In this document: positions 48,516-63,920 of the stretch, piece by piece | How the letters are laid out: every line of letters starts with the position of its first letter | Numbering within the stretch: position 1 is the first letter of the stretch | Origin: an uncultured Halanaerobiales bacterium | GTDB lineage: Bacteria > Bacillota > Halanaerobiia > Halanaerobiales > M55B127 | Direction of reading: 5' to 3' | Assembly (NCBI GenBank): GCA_964430875.1 | Contig: CAYSHP010000006.1 | Coordinates: 5,699 to 69,698, forward strand | Length of the DNA stretch: 64,000 nucleotides | Notes under the pieces: model-generated | Told to the model about the DNA's origin: nothing | Database searches by the model: none | What the model saw: the letters and a program-made list of their open reading frames with translations, nothing else | Made by a program: the position numbers and the translations under genes

Positions 48516-49661
48516 TTATACATTTTGAAAATTAATTTGTAACTCTTTTTCATCTATTCCAGTCTCTGAACAAATCGAATCACATACTCTTTTTAATACT
48601 TTAGAAGCATTAGATTTAGTTAATTCTAATAACAACATCAAATATTGATCTTTGTCCCATTTTGTTATTATATCTCCCTTTCTTAATTCAGTCTCTAATG
48701 TTTTCTCAATATAATATATGTTATTATTTATAAAATTTTGATTATCAAATTTTATATATGCCAAAAATATTGACTTATTATTTCTTTCTGCTCTTCTTTT
48801 TTCTAATTTATAAATCATTCTAAAGATATCATTAGAACATATAAATGCTCCCCTAATATTATCTCTTTCATTTAATTTATCTTGTATTATATTTAGATAA
48901 TTCTTATCAAAATTTTTATTATATAACTCTTCTAACTTTGGCATATTACTCAAATCTAAATTTTTATTAAATAATTCTTTTGCATATTTATAATGAGATC
49001 TAGCATGTCCAATTTTACCAAGCTCTAATAGAGAAGACATATAAATGGTGTGTATTTCTTCTTCTAATGGTTCAATATTAAAACTTTTTTCACAGACCTC
49101 TATTATTTTTTCATGCCGGTCATATTCTTTTAATAGTTTAATATATTCTATTACATTTTCAATATAATACCAGTGATAATTATTTCTACTGGGTATAACC
49201 CAATCATAGTACGGTATCTCGGGCAAATAATCTCCATTATACATATTAAAGGCTTGTTCATAATATTCAAACGCTTCTATTGGTTTTTCTTTACTGACTA
49301 AATTTGCTTTTTTACATAAGTTGATAAACTCTTCAATATCTAACCAATATTCTGATTCTTTATTAAAAAAACATCTTCCCTGACAGTTTATAATGTATTG
49401 GCAATCTTTTTCTTTTGAATTTAAATTTTTCCTTAACCTATACACAAGATTTGTTACTGTATGTGTAGGGTTTTTTATATTCTGGTCAGGCCAAAGATTA
49501 TTCATAATAATTTCAGGATGTATATTTTTCCCTCTTTCTGTTATTAAGTATTTAAATAATAGCCATGGTTTATCATTTGATCTATTATGCGGAGATAATA
49601 GATTACCATTACATTTAACCTTGAATTCACCTAAAGTATAAATCCTTAAAGGTTCATCCAT
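48516..49661 (-). CDS. Regulator R1: SARP/BTAD-type transcriptional activator with C-terminal degenerate GGDEF-like domain
   Basis: N-terminal OmpR/PhoB-type wHTH (YTLGEFKV..KPWLLFKYL..VTNLVYRLRKNL). BTAD-like helical repeat (WLDIEEF..YNGDYLPE..W...R). C-terminal LRKGDIITKWDKDQYLMLL aligns to RxxD-x5-GGDEF-xxLL. Start set at MDEPL (49661, GGGGTGA SD), matching paralog R2. Confidence 0.7.
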   Translation of the reverse strand: MDEPLRIYTLGEFKVKCNGNLLSPHNRSNDKPWLLFKYLITERGKNIHPEIIMNNLWPDQNIKNPTHTVTNLVYRLRKNLNSKEKDCQYIINCQGRCFFNKESEYWLDIEEFINLCKKANLVSKEKPIEAFEYYEQAFNMYNGDYLPEIPYYDWVIPSRNNYHWYYIENVIEYIKLLKEYDRHEKIIEVCEKSFNIEPLEEEIHTIYMSSLLELGKIGHARSHYKYAKELFNKNLDLSNMPKLEELYNKNFDKNYLNIIQDKLNERDNIRGAFICSNDIFRMIYKLEKRRAERNNKSIFLAYIKFDNQNFINNNIYYIEKTLETELRKGDIITKWDKDQYLMLLLELTKSNASKVLKRVCDSICSETGIDEKELQINFQNV

Positions 49662-49926
49662 AAAATCACCCCTTTCAGTGGTTTTTGGGGTAACTGTATA
49701 TGGTATAGAAATGAGAGTTAATAAATTAATAAAAGCTATAGTAAATACAATGAAAAAACATTGCAAGAAAAATTTATCATTATCTTTACCATAGCTTAAA
49801 TTTAAATATATATATTTTTAATTCTCTTTTATAAGTTAACTTTAATTATATCACGAAATTTTTATTTAATCAATATAAATATACTAAATTTTGTTAATTA
49901 TACATTCGATATAAGATTAACTTGTG

Positions 49927-50025: not shown

Positions 50026-50040
50026 TTGTGATTATCACAA
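50026..50040. promoter_or_regulatory. Palindrome TTGTGAT-T-ATCACAA, candidate operator about 180 bp upstream of gene A1
   Basis: 15-bp palindrome. The 9-mer TTTGTGATT recurs at the equivalent distance upstream of gene B1 (54555). Confidence 0.35.
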
Positions 50041-50206
50041 GACATAGAAATGATACCTAAGTGCTATTATTAAAACAAGCAGGGAATTTATAAAAATATA
50101 AAAAAAGGAGGGGGTTGAAAAATAAGTTTTATGCCGGTGATTATTGGGCGGACCGAATTAAGTAGTTTGGTATCTTAAAATAAAAAAACATAAGGAGTGT
50201 TAAATA

Positions 50207-50839
50207 ATGAAAAAATTAGGTATTGGTATATTTGTTTTGATGTTTATTGTATTGGTAGCTATGCCAGTTTTAGCTCTTAATGAGTTAGTTGATATTGATG
50301 ATTCTACTTTATGCTATCCTGATTTCTGGACATGGGTAGACGACCGTGATGATAATAGTGTTGACAAAGACTTATTTGATGATAAAGATATGGTTGATTT
50401 TGATGTAAAATTCTGTGGTTTAGGTCAAGGTTTAGGTGGCCAAAGTGTAAATGGTGTAATGTTTATGGAAAAAAATTATGAAAGATCCGATGTAATTAAT
50501 GGTGGTTCATATGCAAATGCTCATGGCATAGTAACCACTCAAATGTCATCTGGTAATTCAAATTTACAATCTGCTGCTATTTATGCAGATGTTAAATACT
50601 TGGGTGATATTGACCTAGTACCAGTAGGACAAAGTGTTAATGGAGTATTATTCCTAGAAAAAGGTTATATGAGATATGATATGATAGGTGGCGGCGCATT
50701 CGCTAATGCTGTTGGTATTATAACAACTCAACTATCCTCAGGTAATGCAAATCTACAACAAGCTATTGTTGATATAGAAGTAAATCCATCTGTTTTCTGT
50801 CATCCAGCTCCAGCTCCAATTTGCCCATGTAGCAAATAG
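50207..50839 (+). CDS. A1: secreted two-repeat N/Q/G-rich protein (candidate fibre subunit)
   Basis: Signal peptide ..AMPVLA|LNE. Acidic Asp-rich linker. Two 52-aa repeats with 63-aa period (GQSVNGV.F.EK.Y.R.D.I.GG.[YF]ANA.GI.TTQ.SSGN.NLQ). Cys-rich tail CHPAPAPICPCSK. AAGGAG SD. Confidence 0.8.
   Translation: MKKLGIGIFVLMFIVLVAMPVLALNELVDIDDSTLCYPDFWTWVDDRDDNSVDKDLFDDKDMVDFDVKFCGLGQGLGGQSVNGVMFMEKNYERSDVINGGSYANAHGIVTTQMSSGNSNLQSAAIYADVKYLGDIDLVPVGQSVNGVLFLEKGYMRYDMIGGGAFANAVGIITTQLSSGNANLQQAIVDIEVNPSVFCHPAPAPICPCSK
50438..50782 (+). repeat. Tandem coding repeat in A1 (2 x about 156 nt, period 189 nt)
   Basis: Residues 78-129 and 141-192 align with more than 60% identity. Confidence 0.85.
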
Positions 50840-50852
50840 TTTGATATAAAAT

Positions 50853-50885
50853 GCAGGGTATTTGATATACCCTGCTCTAGTTTCC
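50853..50885 (+). terminator. Intra-operon hairpin/attenuator after A1
   Basis: GCAGGGTAT-TTGAT-ATACCCTGC located 14 nt after the stop. Weak T tract. The counterpart after B1 has the same GCAGGGT/ACCCTGC core. Confidence 0.55.
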
Positions 50886-50927
50886 TTGTTAAGTATAGTA
50901 GAATAATTCTTATAAGGAGGAAAATTT

Positions 50928-51626
50928 ATGAAAGTTGATAAAATAATATTTATAAACATCTTAATAATATTATTGGTTTTCAGTATAAGTGGATTTACCT
51001 TTGCTGACAACGTTAGCTTTAGGATTTTTTCCTCCGGTATGAGAATTAATACTACTGTTGAAAGTATCGCTGAATTAAGGTTTAAAAATGTCGTCAAACA
51101 AAAATATGATATAAGCTGTGGATCAGCCGCCTTAGCTACTATATTTCAATTTAATTATAACGATGAGGTAAGTGAACAAGAAATCATCGATATGATTTTG
51201 GGAATTAAAAATATTAGTAGTCTAAAAAATGAATCTGGTTTTAATCTGCTAGATTTAAAAATGGCTGCAGAGTTTTTTGGATACACAGCTCATGGTTTAA
51301 AAGGTAGTCTTGCAGCTATTAGTAAAATTAATTTGCCAATGATTGTTCTCTTAGAAGCACCTCAGGGTCCTCATTTTGTAGTAGTTAGAAAAATCAATGA
51401 AGACTCTGTACAAGTGGCTGACCCTGCTTTGGGTAATCAGTCCATTAAAATTGATAAGTTTGAAAAACAATGGAATAATATATTATTGGCAATTGAAAGC
51501 CGAAATAAAGTCTTAAATGATAATCTTGAAGTTTATGAAATACCTCTTATAACAGGAGGAAAAGATATTATGAGGACTTTAAATGATAGTTGGACAAGAA
51601 TACCTTTTAACCATATAGAATTTTAG
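50928..51626 (+). CDS. A2: periplasmic C39-family cysteine peptidase
   Basis: Signal peptide ..FTFA|DNV. Q58-x5-C64 (KQKYDISCGSAALATIFQ), and H149 (GPHFVVV) with D165 exactly 16 residues later (VADPALG). These are the C39 catalytic set and spacing. AGGAGG SD. Confidence 0.85.
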   Translation: MKVDKIIFINILIILLVFSISGFTFADNVSFRIFSSGMRINTTVESIAELRFKNVVKQKYDISCGSAALATIFQFNYNDEVSEQEIIDMILGIKNISSLKNESGFNLLDLKMAAEFFGYTAHGLKGSLAAISKINLPMIVLLEAPQGPHFVVVRKINEDSVQVADPALGNQSIKIDKFEKQWNNILLAIESRNKVLNDNLEVYEIPLITGGKDIMRTLNDSWTRIPFNHIEF

Positions 51627-51673
51627 ACTAGGATATATTATAATAATCTCTTTAAAAGTTAAGGAGGGGGATA

Positions 51674-52051
51674 ATGAAAAACACATTTAAAATCAGTGGT
51701 TTGTTGTTTATGATTCTTATGTTAATACTCTTATCACCTTCTATAACAGCTGCTGATTTCCCCGCAGAATTTGAAAAGGTTTCTGATTCTGAATTGGCTG
51801 CTATAGAAGGAATGGGAAATATATTTGAAATTGTCGAAATTGCAGAAAACGGTTATGAGTTTAGCTATAGTGGAAATAGAGACAATGCTTTCCAAAATGC
51901 CTCAGGTATTATTAGTGTCAGCAATGTTTCTGGTAATGGTAATACAGTTCAAAATATCATAGACCTAAAAGTATGGATTATGAATATTAATGGAAACATA
52001 AATATTGATATTGATGATCTTGGACAATATCTTCAAGAAATGAATTTATAA
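51674..52051 (+). CDS. A3: small secreted one-repeat protein with double-glycine-type leader motif after the signal peptide
   Basis: Signal peptide ..SITA|ADFP. VSDSELAAIEGMG resembles LSxxELxxIxGG. One copy of the NAFxNAxGI..V.N.SGN.N..QN repeat. GGAGGGGG SD. Confidence 0.8.
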   Translation: MKNTFKISGLLFMILMLILLSPSITAADFPAEFEKVSDSELAAIEGMGNIFEIVEIAENGYEFSYSGNRDNAFQNASGIISVSNVSGNGNTVQNIIDLKVWIMNINGNINIDIDDLGQYLQEMNL

Positions 52052-52067
52052 ATAAAGAATGTTTTCA

Positions 52068-52101
52068 ACCCTCCATTTTTAAGGATGGAGGGTCCTTTTT
52101 T
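52068..52101 (+). terminator. Intra-operon terminator/attenuator between A3 and A4
   Basis: ACCCTCCAT-(8 nt)-ATGGAGGGT followed by CCTTTTTTAC. A similar CCTCCAT/ATGGRGG hairpin sits between B3 and B4. Confidence 0.7.
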
Positions 52102-52171
52102 ACTATAATTAAAAAGGATTAATAATATTAATAGCGAATTATAATTTATAAAATTGAGAGGAGTATAACTT

Positions 52172-53059
52172 ATGAAAAAAATATTAGTCTTTTTATTTAC
52201 TTTGCTTCTTTTTTTAATTTTTATTAATTTTAGTATAGGAGAAATAGTACAGGCCAAAAGTCCCTTTGAAATAGATGTCAGTTTATCTTATTTACATAGT
52301 TCAAATAATAGATTAGCGGTATCAGGTTATAGTGTAATTGAAGTATTAAATGTAGGAAAATTTGAAGTTAGAAAAATAAATAGAGATATACTATCAACAA
52401 ATATAAGATTAAGACACACCACACCTGAAACTAGTGTCGAATTGATAATACCTTATACCTTTAGAAGAGATGAAATTATTAAGTATGCAGATGTGGATTC
52501 TGACACAAATGAACCGACTAGAGAAGTATTAAGCGGGAATGGTTTGGGTGATATACTTTTAAATATACAAACAGATATCAAATATGGTGATGTACATCTG
52601 CAAAATACTCAAGTAAATCTAGGATTGAAAACTTCTACGGGTAAATGGTATGATCCTAAATCAGGTATGTCATTTACATCTGGTCATTATGGATTCAAAT
52701 TGGGTATATCACATATGATACCTATTGATCCCATAGTACTATTTGGAAGTACTAATTATTTTTGGAATATAAAACAATATAATGTAGATCCTGGAGATTC
52801 AATACAATATTCAATGGGGGTAGCCTATGCATTAACACAAAATTTCTCTGTTAATGCCCGCTTTGAGCATACTTTAACAGGAAGTACAGTAAATAATGGA
52901 AGAACAGTTATAGAATCAAGTTCTAATTCTGCAACTTTATATATGGGAGGAAGTTATGTTTCACAAAAAGGTGTTCCCTTTGATGTAATAATAGGTACTG
53001 GTTTAACTGAAGATGCTGCCGATTTCTCTTTTCAACTTAGTAGACCATTTTATTTCTAA
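52172..53059 (+). CDS. A4: small outer-membrane beta-barrel protein (candidate export pore)
   Basis: Signal peptide ..IVQA|KSP. Alternating amphipathic strands throughout. C-terminal beta-signal ..FQLSRPFYF ends in Phe. Size and pattern recall the 'MetA-pathway/transporter' OM barrel family (unverified). Confidence 0.75.
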   Translation: MKKILVFLFTLLLFLIFINFSIGEIVQAKSPFEIDVSLSYLHSSNNRLAVSGYSVIEVLNVGKFEVRKINRDILSTNIRLRHTTPETSVELIIPYTFRRDEIIKYADVDSDTNEPTREVLSGNGLGDILLNIQTDIKYGDVHLQNTQVNLGLKTSTGKWYDPKSGMSFTSGHYGFKLGISHMIPIDPIVLFGSTNYFWNIKQYNVDPGDSIQYSMGVAYALTQNFSVNARFEHTLTGSTVNNGRTVIESSSNSATLYMGGSYVSQKGVPFDVIIGTGLTEDAADFSFQLSRPFYF

Positions 53060-53093: not shown

Positions 53094-53121
53094 AAAAAGC
53101 AGCTTTAAAGCTGCTTTTTTT
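53094..53121. terminator. Bidirectional terminator shared by A4 (+) and regulator R2 (-)
   Basis: 18-nt palindrome AGCAGCTTTAAAGCTGCT flanked by an A-run and a T-run. Same CAGCTTTAAAGCTG core as the hairpin at 48486-48509. Confidence 0.8.
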
Positions 53122-54277
53122 ATATGCTATCAAAATTATATCTAATATCTTCCTTATTTATTTTAAGTTCTTCTTTAATCTCTTCTTTCAATCTTTTTAT
53201 AACTTTATTTACATCTGCTCTAGACATATCCTTAAGTAACATTAAATACTTATCAAAATCCCACCGAGTAATAACATCTCCTTTTCTTAATTCTTTTTCA
53301 ATAATATTTTCTACAATATAATCATTTTGTTTTAAAATATTTTCATTTTCAAATTTTAAATAACTAATAAAAACCGGTTTATCTCTCCTTTCATTCCGTC
53401 TCTCTTCTAATTCGTAAATCATTCTAAATATATCATTTTTACAACTAAAGGCCCCTTTGATATTATTTCTATTTTTTAGTTCTCCTTGAATATCATTAAT
53501 AAAATTATTATTTTTCTTATTATTTTCCGTAAAAATATTATTAAGTTTAGGTGATTTACTTATATCTAAATTTTCACTGAAAAGATTATTGGCATAATTA
53601 TAATGTGATCTAGCATGTGCATGCTCTCCTAACTTAATTAAAGCATCTAAATAATTACTATGAAGTTCTTCTTCATAAGATTCTATATTTAAAGCTTTTT
53701 CAGCTATTGACTCTATTTCTCTATATCTTTCATATTTTTTCAATAAATTAATGAATTCTAGAACTTTTTCAACAAATAACCAGTGGTAATTATTTCGATA
53801 AGGTATAACCCACTCTTGATAAGGTATTTCTGGTAAATAATCTCCTTGATATAAGTTTAAGGCCTCTTTATATAAAGGTATCGCTTGGGCTGGATTATTC
53901 TTTTTTAACTTAGTTGCTTTTTTACTCATTGCAATAAATTCTTCGATATCTAACCAATAGTTTGCATCCTGATTAAAAAAGCAGTTCCCATTAGAGTTGA
54001 TTATATATTGATCACTTTCTTCATTATTAAATAAATTTAGTTGTTTTCTTAATCTGTATACTAAATTTGTAATAGCATGTTTGGGTTTTTTAATATTCTT
54101 TTTAGGCCAAAGATCATTACTAATAACTTCAGAATGTAAGTTTTTTTCTTTTCCAGTAATTAAATATTTGAAAAATAACCACGGTTTTGAATTAAATTTT
54201 TCTTTGGGAGATAATATTTTGCCCTTATATTCAACTTTAAACTTACCTAAGGTATAAATTTCTAATATGTTATCCAT
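53120..54277 (-). CDS. Regulator R2: SARP/BTAD-type activator with degenerate GGDEF-like C-terminus (paralog of R1)
   Basis: YTLGKFKV..KPWLFFKYL..ITNLVYRLRKQL, then WLDIEEF..YQGDYLPE. C-terminal LRKGDVITRWDFDKYLMLL. GGTGGGG SD. Confidence 0.7.
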   Translation of the reverse strand: MDNILEIYTLGKFKVEYKGKILSPKEKFNSKPWLFFKYLITGKEKNLHSEVISNDLWPKKNIKKPKHAITNLVYRLRKQLNLFNNEESDQYIINSNGNCFFNQDANYWLDIEEFIAMSKKATKLKKNNPAQAIPLYKEALNLYQGDYLPEIPYQEWVIPYRNNYHWLFVEKVLEFINLLKKYERYREIESIAEKALNIESYEEELHSNYLDALIKLGEHAHARSHYNYANNLFSENLDISKSPKLNNIFTENNKKNNNFINDIQGELKNRNNIKGAFSCKNDIFRMIYELEERRNERRDKPVFISYLKFENENILKQNDYIVENIIEKELRKGDVITRWDFDKYLMLLKDMSRADVNKVIKRLKEEIKEELKINKEDIRYNFDSI

Positions 54278-54554
54278 AATACCCCACCAATTTATCTTTT
54301 TGGATAACTAATGTCTAGAATAATAATTACTTTTTAAAAATAAATAATATAAATTTCTTGTGAATACCTATCTTCATTTCTTTTAAATTAATTTTAACAA
54401 ACCTTAGTAATTTTATCAAGTTTTATTATCATATGTTATCTTATAAATCTAATAATGATTTTTTCATGAGTATTTTATGATTAAATAAATAATTTATCCC
54501 ACTATAAGTATATTAAAACTTATAATTACCATATTTTAAATTCATCTGTTAAAT

Positions 54555-54573
54555 TTTGTGATTTTCATGTGAG
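54555..54573. promoter_or_regulatory. TTTGTGATT-containing element (TGTGA-N6-TGTGA) about 190 bp upstream of B1
   Basis: Shares the 9-mer TTTGTGATT with the locus-A palindrome, at a similar distance from the start codon. Confidence 0.3.
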
Positions 54574-54659
54574 TTTGTTGTAATTATTTTCTGATAAGTG
54601 GTTGTTATGATATAAGCAAGCTGAATTGAAAACAAAATAATTAACTCGAAAGGTAGAAA

Positions 54660-54744: not shown

Positions 54745-55257
54745 ATGAGAAAATTGTTAGGTATTGGCACTGCATTGATGGTTCTGATGGTATTAGTCGC
54801 TGTTCCAGCTGTAGCCCAGGAGGCATTTAATAATGAAGAAATGCCCGGCTATTATTATGGGGAAGATGTAATCTTTGATGATGCTGAGACTGAAGAAATT
54901 TATATCGGAGAAGAAATCTATTACAGAGATGATCTTATTACCAATAATGCCTTCCGAGATGCACTAGGTATAACAACCGTTCAACAAGCTGCTGGTAATG
55001 CTAGTGTTTTAGAAAGTAATGTTACTATTGAAGGCTTAGAAGAAGCAGATGAATTTGAATTAAGCGCTCAGGAAGTTGAAGTAGAAGAAGTACTAATTAT
55101 GGAAAGAGACTATACCAGAGTTGATACAATATCTGGTAACGCTTTCCGTAATGCAACTGGTATTACTACTGTTCAACAAGCTGCTGGTAATGCAAATGTC
55201 GTTCAATCTAATGTAGAGGTAAATATTGGAGCAGCCTTTGCAGCTCCCGAACTATAA
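54745..55257 (+). CDS. B1: secreted two-repeat N/Q/G-rich protein (paralogous role to A1)
   Basis: Signal peptide ..VPAVA|QEA. Highly acidic. Two repeats (..D.I..NAFR[DN]A.GITTVQQAAGNA.V..SNV) with 64-aa period. AGGAGGG SD. Confidence 0.8.
   Translation: MRKLLGIGTALMVLMVLVAVPAVAQEAFNNEEMPGYYYGEDVIFDDAETEEIYIGEEIYYRDDLITNNAFRDALGITTVQQAAGNASVLESNVTIEGLEEADEFELSAQEVEVEEVLIMERDYTRVDTISGNAFRNATGITTVQQAAGNANVVQSNVEVNIGAAFAAPEL
54916..55221 (+). repeat. Tandem coding repeat in B1
   Basis: Residues about 58-95 and 117-159. The core NAFR.A.GITTVQQAAGNA is identical in both copies. Confidence 0.85.
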
Positions 55258-55270
55258 CAAGAACAAATAA

Positions 55271-55300
55271 AGCAGGGTGTAATCACCCTGCTTTTCTATT
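55271..55300 (+). terminator. Intra-operon terminator/attenuator after B1
   Basis: AGCAGGGTG-TAAT-CACCCTGCT followed by TTTTCTATTTAT. Confidence 0.7.
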
Positions 55301-55327
55301 TATCAATGTAAAAGGGGAGAATTTAAA

Positions 55328-56023
55328 ATGAAAAACAAAAAACCTTTAATTATTATTATCATTTTATTTTTAATATTCAGTACAGTTGGTTTAGTCAAAG
55401 CAGGAAATGTAAAATTTCAGGTGTTCTCCTCTGGCCCTACAATAACTAGAAATATAAAAAGTAAAACTGAAATTAAATTTCATAAAATAGTTAAACAGAA
55501 ATATGATGTAAGTTGTGGCTCAGCTTCATTAGCAACCATATTTCAATATTACTATAATGATGAAATTTCAGAACAAGAAATAATAAATATAATAAAAAAC
55601 ATTAAAAATATTGACACTTTAAAAAATAGTGCTGGTTTTACTTTATTAGATTTAAAGATGGCTGCTGAGTTTTTAGGTTATAAAGCTTATGGTCTAAAAG
55701 GAGATATTAAAGCCATAAGAAAATTAGATCTACCAATAATTGTGCTTCTTAATTCCCCTAAAGGACCTCACTTTGTAGTTATTAAAGAAGTTAAAACCAA
55801 TTCTGTAAAAATAGCGGATCCAGCTCTTGGAAATTTAAATCTTAGTATTGAAAAATTTAAATCACAATGGAATAAAACATTACTAGCAATAGAAAGTAAA
55901 AATAGTATTGGAAATAATAATTTCAGCAGTTTTGAAAAGCCTAATTTACCACAAGAAAATCATATATTTAATTTAATTGAAAATAATTGGACTAGATTAC
56001 CAAAAGATCATAAAGAATTTTAA
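55328..56023 (+). CDS. B2: periplasmic C39-family cysteine peptidase (paralog of A2)
   Basis: Signal peptide ..LVKA|GNV. Q57-x5-C63 (KQKYDVSCGSASLATIFQ). GPHFVVI with Asp 16 residues after His (IADPALG). Confidence 0.85.
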   Translation: MKNKKPLIIIIILFLIFSTVGLVKAGNVKFQVFSSGPTITRNIKSKTEIKFHKIVKQKYDVSCGSASLATIFQYYYNDEISEQEIINIIKNIKNIDTLKNSAGFTLLDLKMAAEFLGYKAYGLKGDIKAIRKLDLPIIVLLNSPKGPHFVVIKEVKTNSVKIADPALGNLNLSIEKFKSQWNKTLLAIESKNSIGNNNFSSFEKPNLPQENHIFNLIENNWTRLPKDHKEF

Positions 56024-56069
56024 TTTATCTGGTTTTTAAATTGTAAAAATGAAAGGTAGGAGGGAGATC

Positions 56070-56441
56070 ATGCATAAAAAATTAATTGTTAAATTGATTA
56101 TGTCGGTATTAATGGTCTCAATTATTATAACTCCTATTTCAGCTGCCGAAATTCCCGAAGGGTTAAATAGTTTAAATGAAAAGGAATTATCAGGTATTAG
56201 AGGTATGGGGCAAAATTTTAGTATAGAACAAATAAATTCATCAAATGTAAAATTTAGATACAGTAGTAATAAAGATAACGCCTTTAAACATGCCTCAGGA
56301 GTTATGAATATAACAAATGTTTCCGGAAATGAAAATACAATAAATAATGTAGTAGACCTAAAGATTAATATCTATAATATTGAAGAAGTTGAAAATCTTG
56401 AACTATCTGATATTAAAAATATGGTCAATCTTAAAAATTAA
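56070..56441 (+). CDS. B3: small secreted one-repeat protein with double-glycine-type leader motif (paralog of A3)
   Basis: Start set at MHKKL (GGAGGGAG SD). Signal peptide ..PISA|AEIP. LNEKELSGIRGMG motif. Repeat DNAFKHASGVMNITNVSGNENTINN. Confidence 0.78.
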   Translation: MHKKLIVKLIMSVLMVSIIITPISAAEIPEGLNSLNEKELSGIRGMGQNFSIEQINSSNVKFRYSSNKDNAFKHASGVMNITNVSGNENTINNVVDLKINIYNIEEVENLELSDIKNMVNLKN

Positions 56442-56455
56442 TGGTTAATAAAAGA

Positions 56456-56486
56456 ATATCCTCCATTAATATGGGGGATATTTTTA
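56456..56486 (+). terminator. Intra-operon terminator/attenuator between B3 and B4
   Basis: ATATCCTCCAT-TAAT-ATGGGGGATAT (one G.U/mismatch) followed by TTTTTAC. Confidence 0.7.
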
Positions 56487-56521
56487 CTTAGTATTTAATA
56501 AATGATCTGGGGGTAAACAAA

Positions 56522-57391
56522 ATGAAAAAGCATATAATAATTTTTTCTTTATTAATAATGTTTTTATTCTCAAGCTTTATTTTGCAAACAAACTTTAGTC
56601 AAGCAAAAAGTCCCTTTGAAATAGAAATAGGTACTTCTTATTCGCATAGTTCTAATAACAGATTAAATGTGAGTGGATATAGTGTAGTTGAAGTGGTAAA
56701 TATAGGAAAGCTGGAAGTTAGAAAAATCAGAAGGGATATTTTGACTTCCAATTTAAAATTAAGATATAAAAATCAAAGATCAAGTTTTGAAATAGTAATA
56801 CCTTATAAAGTACAAAGAAAAAGTGTAATAAAATATGCGGACACTACTGAAAATGGAGAACCCACTGAAAAAATAAAAACTTCTCATGGTTTAGGCGATG
56901 TTATGATCAATTTAAATACAAATATTAAAAGCAAAAATACTAAATTTAATATAGGAGTTAAAACAACTACCGGGCAGGAATATGGTAATGAAACCGATAT
57001 GAATTTTGGTTCTAATTATTATGGTTTAAAATTAGGCATAAGTCATATAAAACAATTAGATCCTGTAGTCTTTTTTGGCAGTGTAAATTACTTTTGGAAT
57101 ATAGAAAAAGATAATTATAATCCAGGTGATACATTACAATATTCTTTAGGCTTAGCATATGCTTTAAGTCAAAACTTATCTTTAAACACTAGAATCGAAC
57201 AGTCTATAACTTCTAGTTCATATCAAAATAATGACAAAATAATTGGTACCAGTATAAATGCATCCTCCTTATATTTAGGAACTAATTATACAAATCAAAG
57301 TGGCTCTTCCTTTAATTTTCTTATTGGTCTTGGTCTATCTGAAGATTCTGTTGATTATTCTCTACAAATAAATAAGCCATATTATTTTTAA
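56522..57391 (+). CDS. B4: small outer-membrane beta-barrel protein (paralog of A4)
   Basis: Signal peptide ..FSQA|KSP. Same N-terminal KSPFEI.. block as A4. C-terminus ..LQINKPYYF. Confidence 0.75.
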   Translation: MKKHIIIFSLLIMFLFSSFILQTNFSQAKSPFEIEIGTSYSHSSNNRLNVSGYSVVEVVNIGKLEVRKIRRDILTSNLKLRYKNQRSSFEIVIPYKVQRKSVIKYADTTENGEPTEKIKTSHGLGDVMINLNTNIKSKNTKFNIGVKTTTGQEYGNETDMNFGSNYYGLKLGISHIKQLDPVVFFGSVNYFWNIEKDNYNPGDTLQYSLGLAYALSQNLSLNTRIEQSITSSSYQNNDKIIGTSINASSLYLGTNYTNQSGSSFNFLIGLGLSEDSVDYSLQINKPYYF

Positions 57392-57410: not shown

Positions 57411-59195
57411 TCAATTTCTGTTTTTCATTTCATACATGAAGTAATCAGCTTCTTTAAAGACCTCTTCAAGTTCTGTTTTGTGATCCTTTTTTACTCCGAA
57501 ACCAGTAGATATACTAATCGGAAACTCATATTTTTCATCTAATTTATTAACATTGGTTTGTATCCTTTGTTCTATTTTTTTAACTTCATCTTCGTCTGTT
57601 TGAGGGAGTAAAATTGCAAATTCATCTCCTCCCACCCGAGCAAGTATATCTTCTTGTCTTACTGCATTGTCTATCTCACTAGCAACTAGATTAATATATT
57701 TATCGCCTCTGGCATGACCAAATTTATCATTTACTTTTTTCAAACCATCAATATCAGACATAATAATACTAATTGGTAGTAACCTTGAATTATCTAACCT
57801 TTCCATTTCACTTTCGAAATATCTTCTATTATATAATCCAGTCATTTGATCATGAAAAGATAAGTATTTAATCTCTTCTTCTTCTTTTTTTCTTTGGGTA
57901 ATATCATTATAAATTGCATATAAGCCAATTTGACCTTCTTTTAAACTAATTGGGAAAGCATGTATTGTAACATCTACTGTTTTACCTTCTTTTGTTTTGC
58001 GAACCGATTCTTTTTCAATGTCCTGATTATTTAAGACTTTTTTAGTATAATTTTGTCCTTCTTCTTTTTTAGTTTCAGGCACTATTAGATCATCTATGTT
58101 TTTATCTTTTGCTTCTGATTGTGAATAACCAAATAAATTCTCAAAACTTTTATTTATCTTAAGGATTTGATTTTCATTATCTAAAAGAGCAATTGCCTCA
58201 GTTGACTCATCGAATAATTGTTGAAAGAATGCTTTTTGTCTTCTTAACTTTCTTTCAGTTTCTTTTCTTTCAGTTATGTCATTATATATGGCATATATCC
58301 CTATTTGGCCTTTACCTAATTTTATGGGAAAAGAATGCATGGAAACAAAAATTCTTTTACCCTCTTTTGTCTTTCTAATTGTTTCTAACTTCACTTCTTT
58401 GCCTGCAATATTTTTTTTGGTATTATTAATGCCTTCTTCTATTTTTTCTTCGGGAGTTATCAGATCATCTATGTTCTTCCCTTTAATCTCTTTTGCCTGA
58501 TAACCAAATACTTTTTCAAAACTTTTATTTACTTTAATAATCTTGCTTTTATTATCTAAGAGAGCAATTGCTTCGGTTGACTCATTAAACAATTGTTGGA
58601 AATATGCTTGATGTTCTTTTAATCTTTTTTCAACATCTTTTCTATAAAAGGCTTCTGTGATATTCAAAAGATAATTTAATACTTTTTTATCTTCTTTACT
58701 AAAATTAACATCTCTATTTTCATCAATATCTAAAGTTATGCCACCTACTGCTTGCTCTTTAAAGTATAAATCAAAAGTAATGGAATCTTTAATTGGTTTT
58801 GATGCCTCTTCTAATTTTGAATAAGTATTATTATCGGTTGAGTCTTTTGTAATATCTATTACTTCACTAATAATAGAGACTTGATTTTTGCGGTCAGACA
58901 GCTGAAATACACTCTCATCTATTGCAATCTGTTTAAGCACAGCAAGATTATGTCCAACAGTATCTAAAAATTTTACTTTACCATCTACATATTTATAAAC
59001 ACTACCATAATCAGCCTTTTTGATTAAATTCATAGCTGTCTTTAAGAGTTTTGACCAAAATATTTTTTCATCTTCAATACTTATTTCATTGAGTTTATTA
59101 GAAAAATTGATAATTCTTTCAAAACTCTTGTTTAATTCATTAACTCTCTTATTTAGCTGTTTAATTTTCTCTTTTAATTCAGCAATTTCATGCAT
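57411..59195 (-). CDS. Diguanylate cyclase: coiled-coil/GAF-like N-terminus, tandem PAS, GGDEF with I-site
   Basis: Two roughly 113-aa PAS units (QQLF[ND]ESTEAIALLDN..). LTGLYNRRYF, DIDGLKKVNDKFGH, and RQED-x5-GGDEF (active A-site plus RxxD I-site). Confidence 0.9.
   Translation of the reverse strand: MHEIAELKEKIKQLNKRVNELNKSFERIINFSNKLNEISIEDEKIFWSKLLKTAMNLIKKADYGSVYKYVDGKVKFLDTVGHNLAVLKQIAIDESVFQLSDRKNQVSIISEVIDITKDSTDNNTYSKLEEASKPIKDSITFDLYFKEQAVGGITLDIDENRDVNFSKEDKKVLNYLLNITEAFYRKDVEKRLKEHQAYFQQLFNESTEAIALLDNKSKIIKVNKSFEKVFGYQAKEIKGKNIDDLITPEEKIEEGINNTKKNIAGKEVKLETIRKTKEGKRIFVSMHSFPIKLGKGQIGIYAIYNDITERKETERKLRRQKAFFQQLFDESTEAIALLDNENQILKINKSFENLFGYSQSEAKDKNIDDLIVPETKKEEGQNYTKKVLNNQDIEKESVRKTKEGKTVDVTIHAFPISLKEGQIGLYAIYNDITQRKKEEEEIKYLSFHDQMTGLYNRRYFESEMERLDNSRLLPISIIMSDIDGLKKVNDKFGHARGDKYINLVASEIDNAVRQEDILARVGGDEFAILLPQTDEDEVKKIEQRIQTNVNKLDEKYEFPISISTGFGVKKDHKTELEEVFKEADYFMYEMKNRN
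57888..58601 (-). repeat. Tandem PAS-domain duplication inside the cyclase gene (period 125 aa)
   Basis: Residues 199-311 and 324-436 are about 60% identical. Confidence 0.8.
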
Positions 59196-61770: not shown

Positions 61771-62035
61771 CTAATCACTCCCCCTTAGATATTAAAGTAA
61801 AATGGGTATATTATTTCACTTACATCTTATATATTATTTATTCTTTTACACTTCTATTATTCCTTTAAAAATATATGATAAGAAAATAATTTGCAATATT
61901 TGTTTGTCCAAAAGGTAATTCTATTGTATAATAAAAAATATAAAGAATCTTTATTAATCTACTAACCATTGAATAAGTTATTAATCAAGCAATTATATAT
62001 AATAAAATAATCCCTGATGAAAGGTGATTAATAAT

Positions 62036-63430
62036 ATGAAATCAATAAACAAAAAAGATAAAATAAATCTTTGGAAGAACATAGAAAGCATAGACCTCTT
62101 ATATGAAAAAATTAAAAATATGGAAAGTAATAAAAATATAGAGAGTTTTAATCTAACATTATATTTATTTGACTTTAAAGAACTTAACCTAAGTTACTCT
62201 GATTATATAAAATTATTCAGTAAAATAATATCAATTTTAAAAAATTATTCTAATAAATATGTTGAGTTATACTGTTTGGAGCAAGATAAGATAATTTTGT
62301 TTAATGAAAAACAAACTATAAATTCTAAAATAAAGAATATGTTAAAAAGTAGAAAATTTAATATTGATAATAAAAAATTATCCTTATCTCCTCAAATTGC
62401 AAGTGTTAATTGGCCTCGGGATGGTAATGATTTTGATAGTTTATTAGAAAAATTATTGACAAAAATTAAAAATGATAATTCTGACATTAATTACCCAATT
62501 CTGTCTTCTCGACCAGGAAGTGTATTTATTAATAAAAAGGATGACTTTTTGGACAAAGTTGAAAAAATATCAACTCAGCTTTATCTAATAGATAAAGATA
62601 AAAATATTGAAATAATTAAACAAAATATTATTGCTGATAGAACTTTTCAGGTAAGAGGTGGGGAAAAAGGCAACTTTGAATTATTTTATATACTTGCCGG
62701 AAAAGTAGTTTATGAAGAAGAAAATATAGTTTTAACTAAAGGTGATTCTATAAGTGCCCGAAGTGGTGAACAAGAAAAATATTTTAAAACAATAACAGAT
62801 ACCACTTTACTTTATATAACTTCTAATCCAATCTTTGCTAGTGAGCAAAGAAGAATAAAAGAACTTATATCTCTAAATGAAAAAATTGAAGAAAAAGATG
62901 TAGAAACAAGAGAACACTGTGATCGGCTGCAAAAATTAAGTCGTTTAACAGCTATTGAATTAAGCTTAGAAGAGAAAAAAATATTTAATCTCGGTTTCGC
63001 TTCTTTTTTACATGATATTGGAAAAGCAAAAGTACCTTCCTCATTACTACAAAAACCTGACAAGTTAACTAAAAAAGAATGGGAACTTATGAAAAAACAC
63101 ACTAAATGGGGTAAAGAAATTATTTTAGAACATTTTAATAAAAGTTATTTTCATAAAATAGCTGAAATAATTAATCAACACCATGAAAGGTGGGACGGTT
63201 TCGGTTATCCCAAAGGTTTATCGGGAAATGAAATCTTAATTGAAGCTCAAATTTTAAGTGTAGTTGATGCTTTTGATGCTATGACTTATGAAAGACCCTA
63301 TCAAAGGGCTTTTAGTCGTAAAGAAGCTATCGAAGAAATTAAATTTGAAAAAGAAAAACAATTTTCTCCTAAGGCAGTAGAAGCATTTTTAAAAGCTGAA
63401 CAAAAGTTTTTTGAAAAAAATAGTCAATAG
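62036..63430 (+). CDS. HD-GYP domain protein (c-di-GMP phosphodiesterase-type) with central cupin-like domain
   Basis: HDIGKAKVP and HHERWDGFGYPKGL HD-GYP signatures. Central GGEKGNFELFYILAGKV..GDSI is a cupin-like beta-barrel. Start set at MKSINK (AGGTGA SD 8 nt upstream). Confidence 0.85.
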   Translation: MKSINKKDKINLWKNIESIDLLYEKIKNMESNKNIESFNLTLYLFDFKELNLSYSDYIKLFSKIISILKNYSNKYVELYCLEQDKIILFNEKQTINSKIKNMLKSRKFNIDNKKLSLSPQIASVNWPRDGNDFDSLLEKLLTKIKNDNSDINYPILSSRPGSVFINKKDDFLDKVEKISTQLYLIDKDKNIEIIKQNIIADRTFQVRGGEKGNFELFYILAGKVVYEEENIVLTKGDSISARSGEQEKYFKTITDTTLLYITSNPIFASEQRRIKELISLNEKIEEKDVETREHCDRLQKLSRLTAIELSLEEKKIFNLGFASFLHDIGKAKVPSSLLQKPDKLTKKEWELMKKHTKWGKEIILEHFNKSYFHKIAEIINQHHERWDGFGYPKGLSGNEILIEAQILSVVDAFDAMTYERPYQRAFSRKEAIEEIKFEKEKQFSPKAVEAFLKAEQKFFEKNSQ

Positions 63431-63831: not shown

Positions 63832-63920
63832 CCCTCCTTTATAACCCGGCTATCTGTTTTAATCAGACCCGTGGCTTTGTGTCTCCACCTCTCGATGGAT
63901 TTACCCTACTGGAGGAACAG
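63832..63920 (-). promoter_or_regulatory. c-di-GMP-I (GEMM-I) riboswitch
   Basis: Minus strand: ..CCUCCAGUAGGGUAAAUCCAUCGAGAGGUGGAGACACAAAGCCACGGGUCUGAUUAAAACAGAUAGCCGGGUUAUAAAGGAGG. This aligns block-for-block with the Vc2 aptamer as I remember it (CAGGGCAAACC-stem-GAAA-stem-GGGACGCAAAGCC-hairpin-GUAGCGGGGUUACC). It includes a GNRA loop (GAGA). Confidence 0.75.

What the first reader, a model, noticed from the sequence alone, without database searches (positions are those of the whole stretch)
48642..48683. SARP/BTAD regulators whose C-terminus looks like a degenerate GGDEF domain retaining the RxxD I-site: candidate c-di-GMP-responsive activators
**Seen in the sequence.** R1 and R2 each have an OmpR-type wHTH plus a BTAD-like helical region, followed by a domain of about 115 aa.
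- R1: GAFICSNDIFRMIYKLEKRRAERNNKSIFLAYIKFDN...LRKGDIITKWDKDQYLMLLLELTKSNASKVLKRV.
- R2 (53246-53287): ...LRKGDVITRWDFDKYLMLLKDMSRADVNKVIKRL.

This lines up with the GGDEF fold pattern (F..L..E..R..R......L...DID... R-x-x-D-x5-GGDEF-xxLL......A....RI). In both, the GGDEF motif is replaced (DKDQY / DFDKY) and the substrate-binding KxxND..GH..GD segment is shortened. RKGD is kept exactly 5 residues upstream.

**Established knowledge.** Degenerate GGDEF domains with an intact RxxD I-site act as c-di-GMP receptors (for example PelD, PopA).

**Inference.** R1/R2 couple c-di-GMP sensing to SARP-type activation of the adjacent operons. I do not recall this domain combination having been described.
Basis: inference. 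Interest (0 to 1): 0.75.

Follow-up and report, generated by a model that had tools for sequence, protein, structure and literature searches.

The report
SARP activators with dead GGDEF sensor
Two neighbouring regulators combine a SARP-type DNA-binding activator with a truncated, catalytically dead diguanylate-cyclase domain that keeps only its c-di-GMP-binding pocket; they belong to a large uncharacterised family found next to biofilm-fibre genes, so they are strong but untested candidates for a new class of c-di-GMP-responsive transcription factor.

Summary
R1 (48516-49661, -) and R2 (53120-54277, -) each consist of an OmpR-type wHTH, a BTAD domain and a ~120-aa C-terminal domain.

- **Fold.** The family profile of the C-terminal domain hits only GGDEF proteins in the PDB (E down to 6e-9). 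The AlphaFold model (pLDDT 93.5) matches GGDEF structures almost exclusively. The N-terminal half matches AfsR and EmbR.
- **Dead enzyme.** The domain is truncated and has no GG[DE]EF motif in any member.
- **I-site kept.** Across 78 relatives (median 29% identity), the R and D of RxxD are the only invariant columns. The arginines equivalent to PleD R390 and R313 are 96% conserved.
- **Family.** About 2,200 clusters, nearly all ~400 aa, mostly Clostridia. Genes sit beside TasA/BsaA-SipW, sortase-adhesin or, in Halanaerobiales, Fap-amyloid operons.
- **Operator.** TGTGAY direct repeats at 11-bp spacing lie 10 bp upstream of a -10 box in front of these target genes.
- **Local context.** A diguanylate cyclase, an HD-GYP protein and a c-di-GMP-I riboswitch lie nearby.

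No paper describing this domain fusion was found. c-di-GMP binding remains an inference. Verdict: new variant of a known kind, readily testable.

The parts
48516..49661 (-). R1: SARP-dGGDEF regulator, 381 aa. The real start is ATG 49661; the mechanical ORF extends to the TTG at 49766.
   Evidence: ORF. Homologues start at MDxxLEIYTLG. A conserved GGGGTGA RBS lies directly upstream of the ATG. AF2 full-length model pLDDT 90.2.
49374..49565 (-). R1 OmpR-type winged-helix DNA-binding domain (residues 33-96)
   Evidence: Pfam Trans_reg_C, 33.8 bits against a cutoff of 26.2. Foldseek match to the AfsR SARP module and to EmbR.
48918..49343 (-). R1 BTAD (bacterial transcriptional activator) domain (residues 107-248)
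   Evidence: Pfam BTAD E 2.5e-14. Foldseek hits 8k60/8hvr with TMt 0.75-0.77.
48519..48878 (-). R1 truncated, degenerate GGDEF domain (residues ~262-381)
48672..48683 (-). R1 RKGD (R327-D330) = I-site RxxD
48642..48656 (-). R1 DKDQY (residues 336-340), at the position of the GG[DE]EF catalytic motif
48588..48590 (-). R1 R358, equivalent to PleD R390 (primary I-site arginine on helix alpha3)
   Evidence: Nearly invariant. 74/77 conserved. Mapping.
48783..48785 (-). R1 R293, equivalent to PleD R313 / WspR R198 (secondary, cross-linking I-site arginine)
   Evidence: Nearly invariant. 74/77 conserved.
53120..54277 (-). R2: paralogous SARP-dGGDEF regulator, 385 aa (about half of residues identical to R1)
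53123..53482 (-). R2 truncated, degenerate GGDEF domain (residues ~266-385)
   Evidence: AF2 pLDDT 93.5. Foldseek hits GGDEF. Pfam and PDB hits.
53276..53287 (-). R2 RKGD (R331-D334) = I-site RxxD. DFDKY at 53246-53260 replaces GGDEF. R362 (53192-53194) and R297 (53387-53389) are the further I-site arginines.
54557..54595 (+). Four direct repeats at 11-bp spacing (TGTGAT / TGTGAG / TGTAAT / TCTGAT) in the promoter of Fap operon 2. The proximal repeat ends 10 bp before the -10 box.
54606..54611 (+). -10-like TATGAT of Fap operon 2, with no good -35
   Evidence: Sequence. Conserved in orthologous promoters.
54456..54481 (+). Distal set of three TGAT/TGAG repeats at 11-bp spacing
50027..50054 (+). 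Repeats in 11-bp register in the promoter of Fap operon 1 (TGTGAT 50027, weak CAAGAC 50038, AATGAT 50049). The -10 TATTAT is at 50065-50070. A distal pair lies at 49923-49939.
50207..53059 (+). Fap-like amyloid operon 1: FapB/C-like repeat protein, C39 peptidase (FapD-like), small repeat protein, FapF-like outer-membrane barrel. Probable target of R1.
54745..57391 (+). Fap-like amyloid operon 2, same gene order. Probable target of R2.
57411..59195 (-). PAS-PAS-GGDEF diguanylate cyclase with intact RQED I-site and GGDEF motif. Possible local c-di-GMP source.
   Evidence: Pfam GGDEF E 5e-39. Synteny conserved in L004, L005, L007 and L036.
62024..63430 (+). Cupin-like + HD-GYP-type (HD_5) protein, probable c-di-GMP phosphodiesterase
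   Evidence: Pfam HD_5 E 2.5e-34. HHERWDGFGYP motif.
63837..63915 (-). c-di-GMP-I riboswitch, which shows the organism uses c-di-GMP signalling
   Evidence: Rfam RF01051, 60.3 bits against a gathering score of 35.

Best explanation
R1 and R2 are SARP-family transcription activators: an OmpR-type winged helix plus a BTAD domain, built like AfsR and EmbR. Their C-terminal sensor is a truncated, catalytically dead GGDEF domain. It has lost every active-site residue but keeps the complete allosteric c-di-GMP pocket (I-site): RxxD plus the two arginines that contact the ligand in PleD and WspR.

**Shown computationally.**
- Domain identities.
- Invariance of the I-site.
- Family size and architecture.
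- Tandem TGTGAY hexamers at 11-bp spacing, with the proximal hexamer ending 10 bp upstream of a -10 box that lacks a -35. These lie in front of the divergent Fap-amyloid operons here, and in front of TasA/BsaA-SipW, sortase-adhesin, EPS and small-protein genes in relatives.

**Inferred.**
- Several protomers bind head-to-tail on these repeats and recruit RNA polymerase, as AfsR does.
- An intercalated c-di-GMP dimer binds the I-site. It bridges the primary site of one protomer to the secondary arginine of the next, as in PleD and WspR.
- This stabilises the active oligomer, so that high c-di-GMP turns on matrix-fibre genes.
- The sign of the effect (activation rather than inhibition) is the least certain step.
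For: **Fold and homology.**
- The C-terminal family profile against the PDB lists GGDEF proteins for 31 of 32 chains at E<=1, with a best E of 6e-9 covering profile positions 18-121.
- 37/46 members hit Pfam GGDEF.
- AF2 model pLDDT 93.5. Foldseek returns GGDEF domains at 49 of the top 50 ranks, TMq 0.5-0.77.
- The family HMM reciprocally hits the true PAS-GGDEF cyclases in the loci, with E between about 2.5e-7 and 4e-9.

**SARP module.**
- Pfam hits.
- Foldseek top hits are AfsR in the transcription initiation complex (8k60, 8hvr; TMt 0.75-0.77) and EmbR.

**I-site.**
- RxxD aligns with RxxD, and DKDQY/DFDKY aligns with GG[DE]EF, in SiaD, TM1788, the window's own cyclase and PleD.
- Among 78 distinct relatives from one-genome-per-species data (median 29% identity), R and D are the only invariant columns.
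- The R390 and R313 equivalents are each 74/77 and rank 5th and 6th in conservation.
- No member has GG[DE]EF.

**Operator.**
- TGA sites on the fap-coding strand show a lag-11 peak: 15 pairs, against at most 6 at any lag other than the multiples of 11 (lag 22 has 10). No such peak appears on the other strand.
- In 18 REG-downstream intergenic regions of other lineages, the 5-mer self-match at lag 11 is 58, against at most 28 at other lags.
- TGTGAY-N5-TGTGAB occurs 20 times in 1.01 Mb, against about 1 in shuffles. 18 of these are intergenic and lie upstream of matrix genes.

**Context.**
- 27/50 loci with adequate flank carry TasA/BsaA, SipW, sortase or Fap genes within 7 kb.
- The window barrel hits only FapF in the PDB.
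- A cyclase, an HD-GYP protein and a c-di-GMP-I riboswitch lie within 10 kb.
- The Fap leaders contain no riboswitch.
Against: - There are no binding data of any kind.
- R1 and R2 themselves score below Pfam's GGDEF gathering threshold (16.4-21.9 bits against 23.8).
- The domain lacks the last third of a canonical GGDEF domain: a median of 26 residues follow the R390 equivalent. Pocket geometry could therefore differ.
- The I-site arginines are common in GGDEF domains in general, so part of their presence is inheritance.
- An invariant Cys (GAFxC) and a near-invariant Glu have no role in the c-di-GMP model. They could point to another ligand or a redox input.
- Cyclase adjacency is seen only in the closely related Halanaerobiales loci.
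- The inter-domain arrangement is uncertain (pTM 0.64).
The PleD mapping is independently consistent with the ungapped PDB stretch.
Confidence: 0.58

Rival explanations
1. The dead GGDEF domain is a ligand-independent module. It would act as an oligomerisation or scaffold domain, or as a docking surface for a partner protein such as the neighbouring PAS-GGDEF cyclase. The RxxD/Arg cluster would be conserved for protein-protein or intramolecular contacts with the BTAD domain.
For: - GGDEF domains dimerise, and other transcription regulators carry GGDEF-like domains with no known nucleotide ligand. Pfam GGDEF_2 (PucR/CdaR-type, from my own knowledge) is hit by 4 family members.
- A cyclase is syntenic in the Halanaerobiales.
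- The conserved Cys and Glu are unexplained by c-di-GMP binding.
Against: - The only invariant columns are exactly the two ligand-contacting residues of the I-site.
- The two further ligand-contacting arginines follow closely in conservation.
- From my own knowledge, degenerate GGDEF domains that do not bind c-di-GMP (LapD, FimX, CsrD) have generally lost RxxD.
- Cyclase adjacency is absent outside the Halanaerobiales.
Confidence: 0.2
2. The retained pocket binds a different nucleotide, for example pGpG, 3'3'-cGAMP, c-di-AMP, (p)ppGpp or GTP. The regulators would then report a signal other than c-di-GMP.
For: - A PDB entry of PleD with both c-di-GMP and ppGpp (9g85) appears among the hits. The title does not say where ppGpp binds, so this is only weak support for alternative ligands.
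- The domain is truncated and diverged, and the second and third RxxD residues are biased to K/R and G. This could retune specificity.
- From my own knowledge, Firmicutes use c-di-AMP widely.
Against: - From my own knowledge, all characterised RxxD I-sites bind c-di-GMP.
- The organism has c-di-GMP machinery and a c-di-GMP-I riboswitch next door.
- The target genes are classic c-di-GMP outputs, namely matrix fibres, adhesins and EPS.
- GTP-site residues are all lost.
Confidence: 0.15
3. The GGDEF resemblance is a chance or generic ferredoxin-like similarity, and the RKGD motif is coincidental.
For: R1 and R2 alone are below the Pfam threshold. Sequence identity to solved GGDEF domains is only 10-21%.
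Against: - Profile E 6e-9, with hits almost exclusively to GGDEF.
- 37/46 members hit PF00990.
- 49 of the top 50 Foldseek hits are GGDEF.
- Motif-for-motif register with RxxD-N5-GGDEF.
Confidence: 0.02

Closest known systems
SARP regulators (AfsR, EmbR, ActII-ORF4/DnrI) of actinomycetes
   Same: - OmpR-type wHTH plus BTAD module, with a structural match to AfsR in the RNA polymerase complex and to EmbR.
- Tandem direct repeats at 11-bp (one helical turn) spacing abutting a -10 box without a -35.
- A variable C-terminal sensor is a known theme: FHA in EmbR, NOD/TPR in AfsR (my own knowledge).
   Different: - Found in Clostridia, Halanaerobiales and Thermotogae, not actinomycetes.
- The sensor is a dead GGDEF domain.
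- Targets are matrix-fibre, adhesin and EPS genes, not antibiotic clusters.
- The repeat is the hexamer TGTGAY.
Degenerate-GGDEF I-site c-di-GMP receptors (PelD, PopA, SgmT, B. subtilis YdaK, Listeria PssE)
   Same: The catalytic motif is lost, RxxD lies five residues upstream of the former GGDEF position, and the accompanying arginine is retained. Outputs relate to the biofilm matrix. PopA's I-site logic is summarised in PMC12564702; the other examples come from my own knowledge.
   Different: - Those proteins act post-translationally, on glycosyltransferase activation, protein localisation or kinase sequestration. None carries a DNA-binding domain.
- Here the domain is fused to a transcription activator.
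- It is truncated after beta4.
c-di-GMP-responsive transcription factors (FleQ, VpsT, VpsR, BldD, MrkH, Clp, BrlR, CuxR)
   Same: The proposed logic is the same: c-di-GMP controls oligomerisation or activity of a DNA-binding protein that switches matrix genes on or off. BldD (PMC4151990) is dimerised by the ligand itself.
   Different: None of these senses the ligand through a GGDEF I-site, and none is a SARP. They use AAA+, REC, PilZ, cNMP or MerR-type sites. The 2025 effector review contains no occurrence of SARP or OmpR.
PucR/CdaR-type regulators with a GGDEF_2 (PF17853) domain
   Same: A transcription regulator carrying a diverged GGDEF-like domain. Four family members give weak GGDEF_2 hits.
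   Different: - Different DNA-binding domain (HTH_30) and different domain order.
- No conserved RxxD I-site and no c-di-GMP link known (my own knowledge).
- This family matches PF00990 much better: 37 members against 4.
GSU1771 of Geobacter sulfurreducens (REC-SARP biofilm regulator)
   Same: A SARP-family regulator outside the actinomycetes that controls biofilm and extracellular structures (PMC10599522).
   Different: Its input is an N-terminal receiver domain (phosphorylation), not a C-terminal GGDEF-derived domain.

Membership tests
SARP (Streptomyces antibiotic regulatory protein) family | N-terminal OmpR-type winged-helix DNA-binding domain | tested here: met
   Pfam Trans_reg_C scores 33.8 bits for R1 (cutoff 26.2) and 18.3 bits for R2 (sub-threshold). 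Structural superposition on AfsR and EmbR spans this region.
SARP (Streptomyces antibiotic regulatory protein) family | BTAD helical activator domain following the wHTH | tested here: met
   Pfam BTAD E 2.5e-14 and 1.9e-15. Foldseek to 8k60/8hvr gives TMt 0.75-0.77, rmsd ~3.6 A over ~250 columns.
SARP (Streptomyces antibiotic regulatory protein) family | Binding to tandem direct repeats at 11-bp periodicity overlapping the -35 region of target promoters | tested here: inconclusive
   Sites with this geometry are present and conserved next to the genes. Physical binding cannot be tested here.
SARP (Streptomyces antibiotic regulatory protein) family | Transcriptional activation through RNA polymerase contacts | not testable with these tools
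   Needs in vitro transcription or reporter assays.
GGDEF domain (PF00990) superfamily | Significant sequence-profile match | tested here: inconclusive
   R1 and R2 alone score 16.4-21.9 bits, below the 23.8 gathering score. The family profile gives E 6e-9 to solved GGDEF domains, and 37/46 members hit PF00990 at E<0.01.
GGDEF domain (PF00990) superfamily | GGDEF (palm-like beta-alpha-alpha-beta-beta-alpha-beta) fold | tested here: met
   AF2 pLDDT 93.5. 49 of the top 50 Foldseek PDB hits are GGDEF domains, TMq up to 0.77.
GGDEF domain (PF00990) superfamily | Complete ~160-aa domain including alpha4/beta5 and later elements | tested here: not met
   The Pfam match covers only profile positions 59-120 of 161. 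The model ends after beta4. A median of 26 residues follow the R390 equivalent.
Active diguanylate cyclases | GG[DE]EF catalytic motif, with the metal- and substrate-binding Asp, Lys and Asn residues | tested here: not met
   The motif is DKDQY in R1 and DFDKY in R2. No GG[DE]EF occurs in 79 relatives; the commonest forms are NESQF/NESQY. Where the family profile aligns to SiaD, the family's 'LTLT' occupies the place of the metal-binding 'LDVD'.
Degenerate-GGDEF I-site c-di-GMP receptors (PelD/PopA/YdaK/PssE type) | RxxD exactly five residues upstream of the former GGDEF position | tested here: met
   for the sequences. Register confirmed. R 78/78 and D 78/78.
Degenerate-GGDEF I-site c-di-GMP receptors (PelD/PopA/YdaK/PssE type) | Additional ligand-contacting arginines (PleD R390 and R313 / WspR R198 equivalents) | tested here: met
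   R97 and R32 of the C-terminal alignment are each 74/77. Mapping used PleD and WspR sequences from memory. The window's own cyclase serves as a tool-derived control.
Degenerate-GGDEF I-site c-di-GMP receptors (PelD/PopA/YdaK/PssE type) | Measured c-di-GMP binding that depends on the I-site | not testable with these tools
   Requires DRaCALA, ITC or MST with wild-type and R/D-to-A proteins.
Fap functional-amyloid system (for the neighbouring operons) | FapB/C repeat subunit, FapD C39 peptidase and FapF outer-membrane barrel in one operon | tested here: met
   - The orthologous repeat proteins carry Pfam FapBC PF27129.
- Peptidase_C39 E 2e-24 and 4e-26.
- The barrel hits NCBIfam FapF at E 4.7e-15, below the equivalog cutoff.
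- The barrel hits only FapF in the PDB, E 1.5e-10.
- FapA and FapE equivalents are not identified.

The most novel reading that the evidence does not exclude
This is a previously unrecognised, large family of c-di-GMP-responsive transcription activators (about 2,000 clusters at 50% identity).

- A SARP DNA-binding module is switched by a GGDEF domain reduced to its I-site.
- An intercalated c-di-GMP dimer would cross-link promoter-bound protomers on TGTGAY repeats.
- The family would act as the master switch for protein-fibre biofilm matrices across Clostridia, Halanaerobiales and Thermotogae: TasA/BsaA-SipW fibres, sortase-assembled adhesins, Fap amyloid and EPS.
- In these lineages essentially no protein transcription-factor effector of c-di-GMP is known.
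Probability: 0.5. Interest if true: 0.82.

Novelty: new variant of a known kind. Interest (0 to 1): 0.7.

Why it matters
**A missing effector in anaerobic Firmicutes.** c-di-GMP signalling in these bacteria is mostly explained by riboswitches and a few PilZ or I-site receptors. A transcription factor that reads c-di-GMP directly is missing from this picture.

**A ready-made candidate.** The family has defined ligand-site residues to mutate and a defined operator (TGTGAY at 11-bp spacing, 10 bp from the -10 box). It also has a coherent regulon of biofilm-matrix genes.

**New uses of known parts.**
- A GGDEF domain stripped down to its allosteric site, acting as a sensor cassette for DNA-binding proteins.
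- SARP activators at work far outside actinomycete secondary metabolism.
- Fap-type amyloid operons in diderm Firmicutes.

**Practical relevance.** Relatives occur in syntrophic and digester Clostridia (Syntrophomonas and others), where aggregation and biofilm formation determine process performance.

Tried and rejected
- **The search for related loci with the whole-family alignments A1 and A2.** This failed because no stretch was conserved enough. A 13-sequence subset (A3) worked.
- **phmmer of the R1 N-terminal half against the PDB.** It found nothing. The SARP relationship was shown by fold comparison of the full-length model instead.
- **Generic repeat finder on the two intergenic regions.** It did not report the short 11-bp-spaced hexamers. 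They emerged from aligning orthologous promoters and were then tested by lag analysis and a pattern census. The first pattern test was derived from the same region, so it is circular and I do not rely on it.
- **Riboswitch control of the Fap operons.** Rejected: no Rfam family reached a meaningful score between 49500 and 54800. The only riboswitch in the window is at 63837-63915.
- **Residual cyclase activity in some members.** Rejected: no GG[DE]EF in 79 relatives.
- **Cyclase adjacency as a family-wide feature.** Rejected: it holds only in the Halanaerobiales loci plus one or two others.
- **AFDB fold search.** The library was unavailable.
- **Surface clustering of the I-site residues.** Model coordinates are not exposed by the tools, so this could not be measured.
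Full report
**1. What is at the coordinates.**

Window 48642-48683(-) translates to RKGDIITKWDKDQY, and 53246-53287(-) to RKGDVITRWDFDKY. These lie near the C-termini of two paralogous ORFs.
- R1 is the mechanical ORF 48516-49766.
  - Homologue alignment and a conserved GGGGTGA ribosome-binding site put the real start at ATG 49661.
  - This gives a 381-aa protein.
- R2 is 53120-54277, 385 aa.

Both hit Pfam BTAD (E ~1e-14 to 1e-15). Trans_reg_C is above the cutoff for R1 and below it for R2. Each gene is divergent from a four-gene operon on the + strand.

**2. The C-terminal domain is a GGDEF domain.**

Single-sequence searches give weak but specific hits:
- Pfam GGDEF, E 1.6e-4 to 8e-3, below the gathering score.
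- NCBIfam diguanylate cyclase SiaD, E 4e-7.
- The six best PDB sequences are all GGDEF proteins.

I collected 59 homologues, aligned them (A1), and cut out the C-terminal ~120-140 residues (A2).
- The A2 profile matches solved GGDEF domains with E down to 6e-9, over almost its whole length.
  - 31 of the 32 chains listed at E<=1 are GGDEF proteins.
  - The exception is a designed helical oligomer at E 0.9.
- 37 of 46 members individually hit PF00990.
- AlphaFold2 on A2 gives pLDDT 93.5 with a beta-alpha-beta-alpha-alpha-beta-beta-alpha-beta topology.
- Foldseek against the PDB returns GGDEF domains at 49 of the first 50 ranks, TMq 0.5-0.77.
- Reciprocally, the family HMM picks up the genuine PAS-GGDEF cyclases in the fetched loci, with E between about 2.5e-7 and 4e-9.

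The domain is incomplete. The Pfam match covers profile positions ~59-120 of 161. The model ends after beta4. A median of 26 residues follow the last conserved arginine.

**3. Dead active site, intact I-site.**

In the HMM alignments the family's LRKGDV-x3-W-xxxQ[YF] lines up with:
- LREYDLCGRWGGEEF of SiaD;
- RRSDVVARYGGDEF of TM1788;
- RQEDILARVGGDEF of the window's own cyclase.

I fetched 77 loci from a collection with one genome per species and aligned 79 distinct C-terminal domains. Median pairwise identity is 29%.

| Position (R2 C-terminal numbering) | Conservation | Equivalent |
|---|---|---|
| R66 | 78/78 | PleD R359 |
| D69 | 78/78 | PleD D362 |
| R97 | 74/77 | PleD R390 |
| R32 | 74/77 | PleD R313 / WspR R198 |

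- R66 and D69 are the only invariant columns. R97 and R32 rank 5th and 6th.
For PleD it agrees with the ungapped 66-109 to 352-395 stretch reported for PDB entry 2wb4.
- No member has GG[DE]EF; the commonest forms are NESQF/NESQY.
- Where the family profile aligns to SiaD, the family's 'LTLT' occupies the place of the metal-binding 'LDVD'.

**4. The N-terminal half is a SARP module.**

The full-length R1 model has pLDDT 90.2 and pTM 0.64. Its best Foldseek matches are:
- the SARP domain of AfsR inside the Streptomyces transcription initiation complex (8k60, 8hvr; TMt 0.75-0.77, rmsd ~3.6 A over ~250 columns);
- EmbR (2ff4, 2fez);
- then GGDEF proteins for the C-terminus.

**5. Family size and distribution.**

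An exhaustive profile search of 1.84 billion cluster representatives found 2,202 proteins at E<=1e-10. The listed top hits are nearly all ~395-425 aa with the domain at the C-terminus. The shorter ones look like fragments.

Genome hits come from Halanaerobiales, many Syntrophomonadaceae, Clostridium, Anoxynatronum buryatiense (a cultured isolate), Dethiobacter, Gracilibacter, Peptococcaceae, Oscillospiraceae and Thermotogaceae. Two paralogues per locus are frequent, as in the window.

**6. What the family sits next to.**

I clustered all ORFs of the 82 sequences held (81 loci plus the window) and annotated representatives. The recurrent neighbours are:
- BsaA/TasA-family SipW-dependent biofilm matrix proteins;
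- SipW signal peptidases;
- DUF5305 proteins;
- sortases together with large secreted proteins;
- an unannotated ~80-90-aa cytoplasmic protein ('small93', 23 loci);
- in the Halanaerobiales, the four-gene operon seen here.

Of 50 loci with at least 4 kb of flank, 27 have TasA/SipW/sortase/Fap-type genes within 7 kb.

The window operons are Fap-type functional-amyloid operons:
- The orthologous repeat proteins carry Pfam FapBC.
- The second gene is a C39 peptidase, like FapD.
- The barrel hits NCBIfam FapF (E 4.7e-15).
- In the PDB the barrel hits only FapF (E 1.5e-10).

**7. Operator sites.**

Aligning the orthologous regulator-fapBC intergenic regions shows conserved hexamers spaced by exactly 11 bp on the fap strand.

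| Promoter | Hexamers in 11-bp register | -10 box |
|---|---|---|
| Fap operon 2 | TGTGAT 54557, TGTGAG 54568, TGTAAT 54579, TCTGAT 54590 | TATGAT 54606-54611 |
| Fap operon 1 | TGTGAT 50027, weak CAAGAC 50038, AATGAT 50049 | TATTAT 50065-50070 |

- In each promoter the proximal hexamer ends 10 bp before a -10-like box, and there is no -35.
- Across the eight intergenic regions, TGA sites give 15 pairs at lag 11 and 10 at lag 22. Every other lag gives 6 or fewer, and the opposite strand shows no peak.
- Independently, in 18 regulator-downstream intergenic regions from other lineages the 5-mer self-match count is 58 at lag 11, against at most 28 elsewhere.
  - The repeats are visibly TGTGAC/T.
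  - An example is TGTGACTGAAATGTGACTCTGATGTGAC in L026.
- L018 and L015 show the same 10-bp distance to TATTAT/TATGAT.
- A strict pattern, TGTGAY-N5-TGTGA[CTG], occurs 20 times in 1.01 Mb, against about 1 in shuffles.
  - 18 occurrences are intergenic.
  - They lie 16-750 bp upstream of small93, TasA/BsaA, SipW operons, sortase-substrate proteins, FapBC and an EPS sugar transferase.
- This is the SARP hallmark (my own knowledge of ActII-ORF4, DnrI and AfsR), and it defines a matrix regulon.

**8. c-di-GMP context.**

- Directly after Fap operon 2 lies an intact PAS-PAS-GGDEF cyclase (57411-59195; Pfam E 5e-39).
- A cupin-like/HD-GYP-type protein is at 62024-63430.
- A c-di-GMP-I riboswitch is at 63837-63915 (60.3 bits).
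- The cyclase and HD-GYP synteny is conserved in four related Halanaerobiales loci, but not outside that order.
- No riboswitch lies in the Fap leaders. Protein-level sensing is therefore a plausible route for c-di-GMP control of these operons.

**9. Mechanism.**

*Shown computationally:* domain identities, the dead active site, the invariant I-site, the operator geometry, and the matrix-gene regulon.

*Inferred:*
- Several protomers bind head-to-tail on the 11-bp repeats and recruit RNA polymerase, as AfsR does.
- An intercalated c-di-GMP dimer binds R/D/R of one dGGDEF domain and the R32-equivalent of a neighbour, as in PleD and WspR product inhibition.
- This stabilises the oligomer, so that high c-di-GMP activates matrix genes.
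- The sign of the effect is a guess based on the usual c-di-GMP logic.

*Rivals:* a ligand-free oligomerisation or docking domain, another nucleotide ligand, or chance resemblance. The last is effectively excluded.

**10. Novelty.**

Full-text searches found no description of this fusion or of a SARP-type c-di-GMP effector. The term sets searched were:
- BTAD + GGDEF;
- SARP + c-di-GMP + GGDEF;
- degenerate GGDEF + RxxD + DNA-binding domain + transcriptional activator;
- SipW/TasA/BsaA + SARP/BTAD.

A 2025 effector review contains no occurrence of SARP or OmpR. The nearest published SARP with a biofilm role is the REC-SARP GSU1771 of Geobacter. The parts are known (the SARP module and I-site receptors such as PelD, PopA, YdaK and PssE). 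The combination and its regulon are new, so I rate it a new variant of a known kind.

**11. Verdict.**

- c-di-GMP binding is untested.
- Confidence in the full mechanism is ~0.58. Confidence in the architecture, the I-site conservation and the SARP-type control of adjacent matrix genes is about 0.9.
- Interest: 0.7.

Noticed in passing
window 50207-53059 and 54745-57391 (+): Two tandem copies of a Fap-type functional-amyloid operon: a FapB/C-like repeat protein, a C39 peptidase, a small secreted protein with a related repeat, and a FapF-like barrel. The host is a Halanaerobiales-like low-GC genome. As far as I know, Fap systems are described only in Proteobacteria. No FapA or clear FapE equivalent was identified.
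   Followed up: partly
window 63837-63915 (-): A c-di-GMP-I riboswitch (Rfam 60.3 bits). It sits just upstream of an 80-aa ORF with a signal peptide (63584-63826) that has no Pfam match.
   Followed up: partly
window 54622-54707 (+): A conserved 21-nt-arm hairpin (TGAATTGAAAACAAAATAATT ... AATTATTGAGTTTTCAATTCA). It lies in the 5' leader of Fap operon 2, between the -10 box and the RBS, and is present in four of five orthologous leaders. No Rfam match; function unknown.
   Followed up: partly
L025 11344-11890; L012 11433-11923; L015 1416-1965; L023 11528-12076 and others (23 loci): An unannotated cytoplasmic protein family of ~80-90 aa with the motif FLIRVQFRQNxSWQGxIxWLxxxKxxxFRSLLEL. It is usually the first gene downstream of the regulator and directly behind TGTGAY repeats. 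It often occurs as two tandem paralogues or as a fused two-domain protein. No Pfam or NCBIfam hit. It is absent from the window. It could be a co-regulator.
   Followed up: partly
R1 residue C275 (window 48837-48839) and R2 residue C279 (window 53441-53443): A cysteine in the GAFxC strand that opens the degenerate GGDEF domain is conserved in 77/78 relatives. A glutamate on helix alpha1 is conserved in 73/77. Neither has a role in the I-site model. Possible redox input or second ligand.
   Followed up: no
window 49662-49766 (-): Public protein sets carry a 416-aa version of R1 (P0012) that starts at the upstream TTG and adds a hydrophobic 35-residue extension. Alignment and the conserved RBS indicate this is an over-extended gene call.
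   Followed up: yes
L042 10862-11848 (+): A SipW-type signal peptidase fused to an N-terminal receiver (REC) domain, next to the regulator and TasA/BsaA genes. This is an unusual architecture that suggests phosphorylation control of matrix-protein processing.
   Followed up: no
L038 15577 (+): A perfect TGTGAC-N5-TGTGAC repeat 252 bp upstream of a bacterial sugar-transferase-like gene. This suggests the regulon extends to exopolysaccharide synthesis in some Clostridium genomes.
   Followed up: no
L065, L066, L067, L072, L073, L075: In the most distant relatives (including Thermotogaceae and uncultured Bacillota) the regulator sits next to a ~510-aa secreted protein and a secretin-like protein, not TasA or Fap genes. 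These were not annotated further.
   Followed up: no
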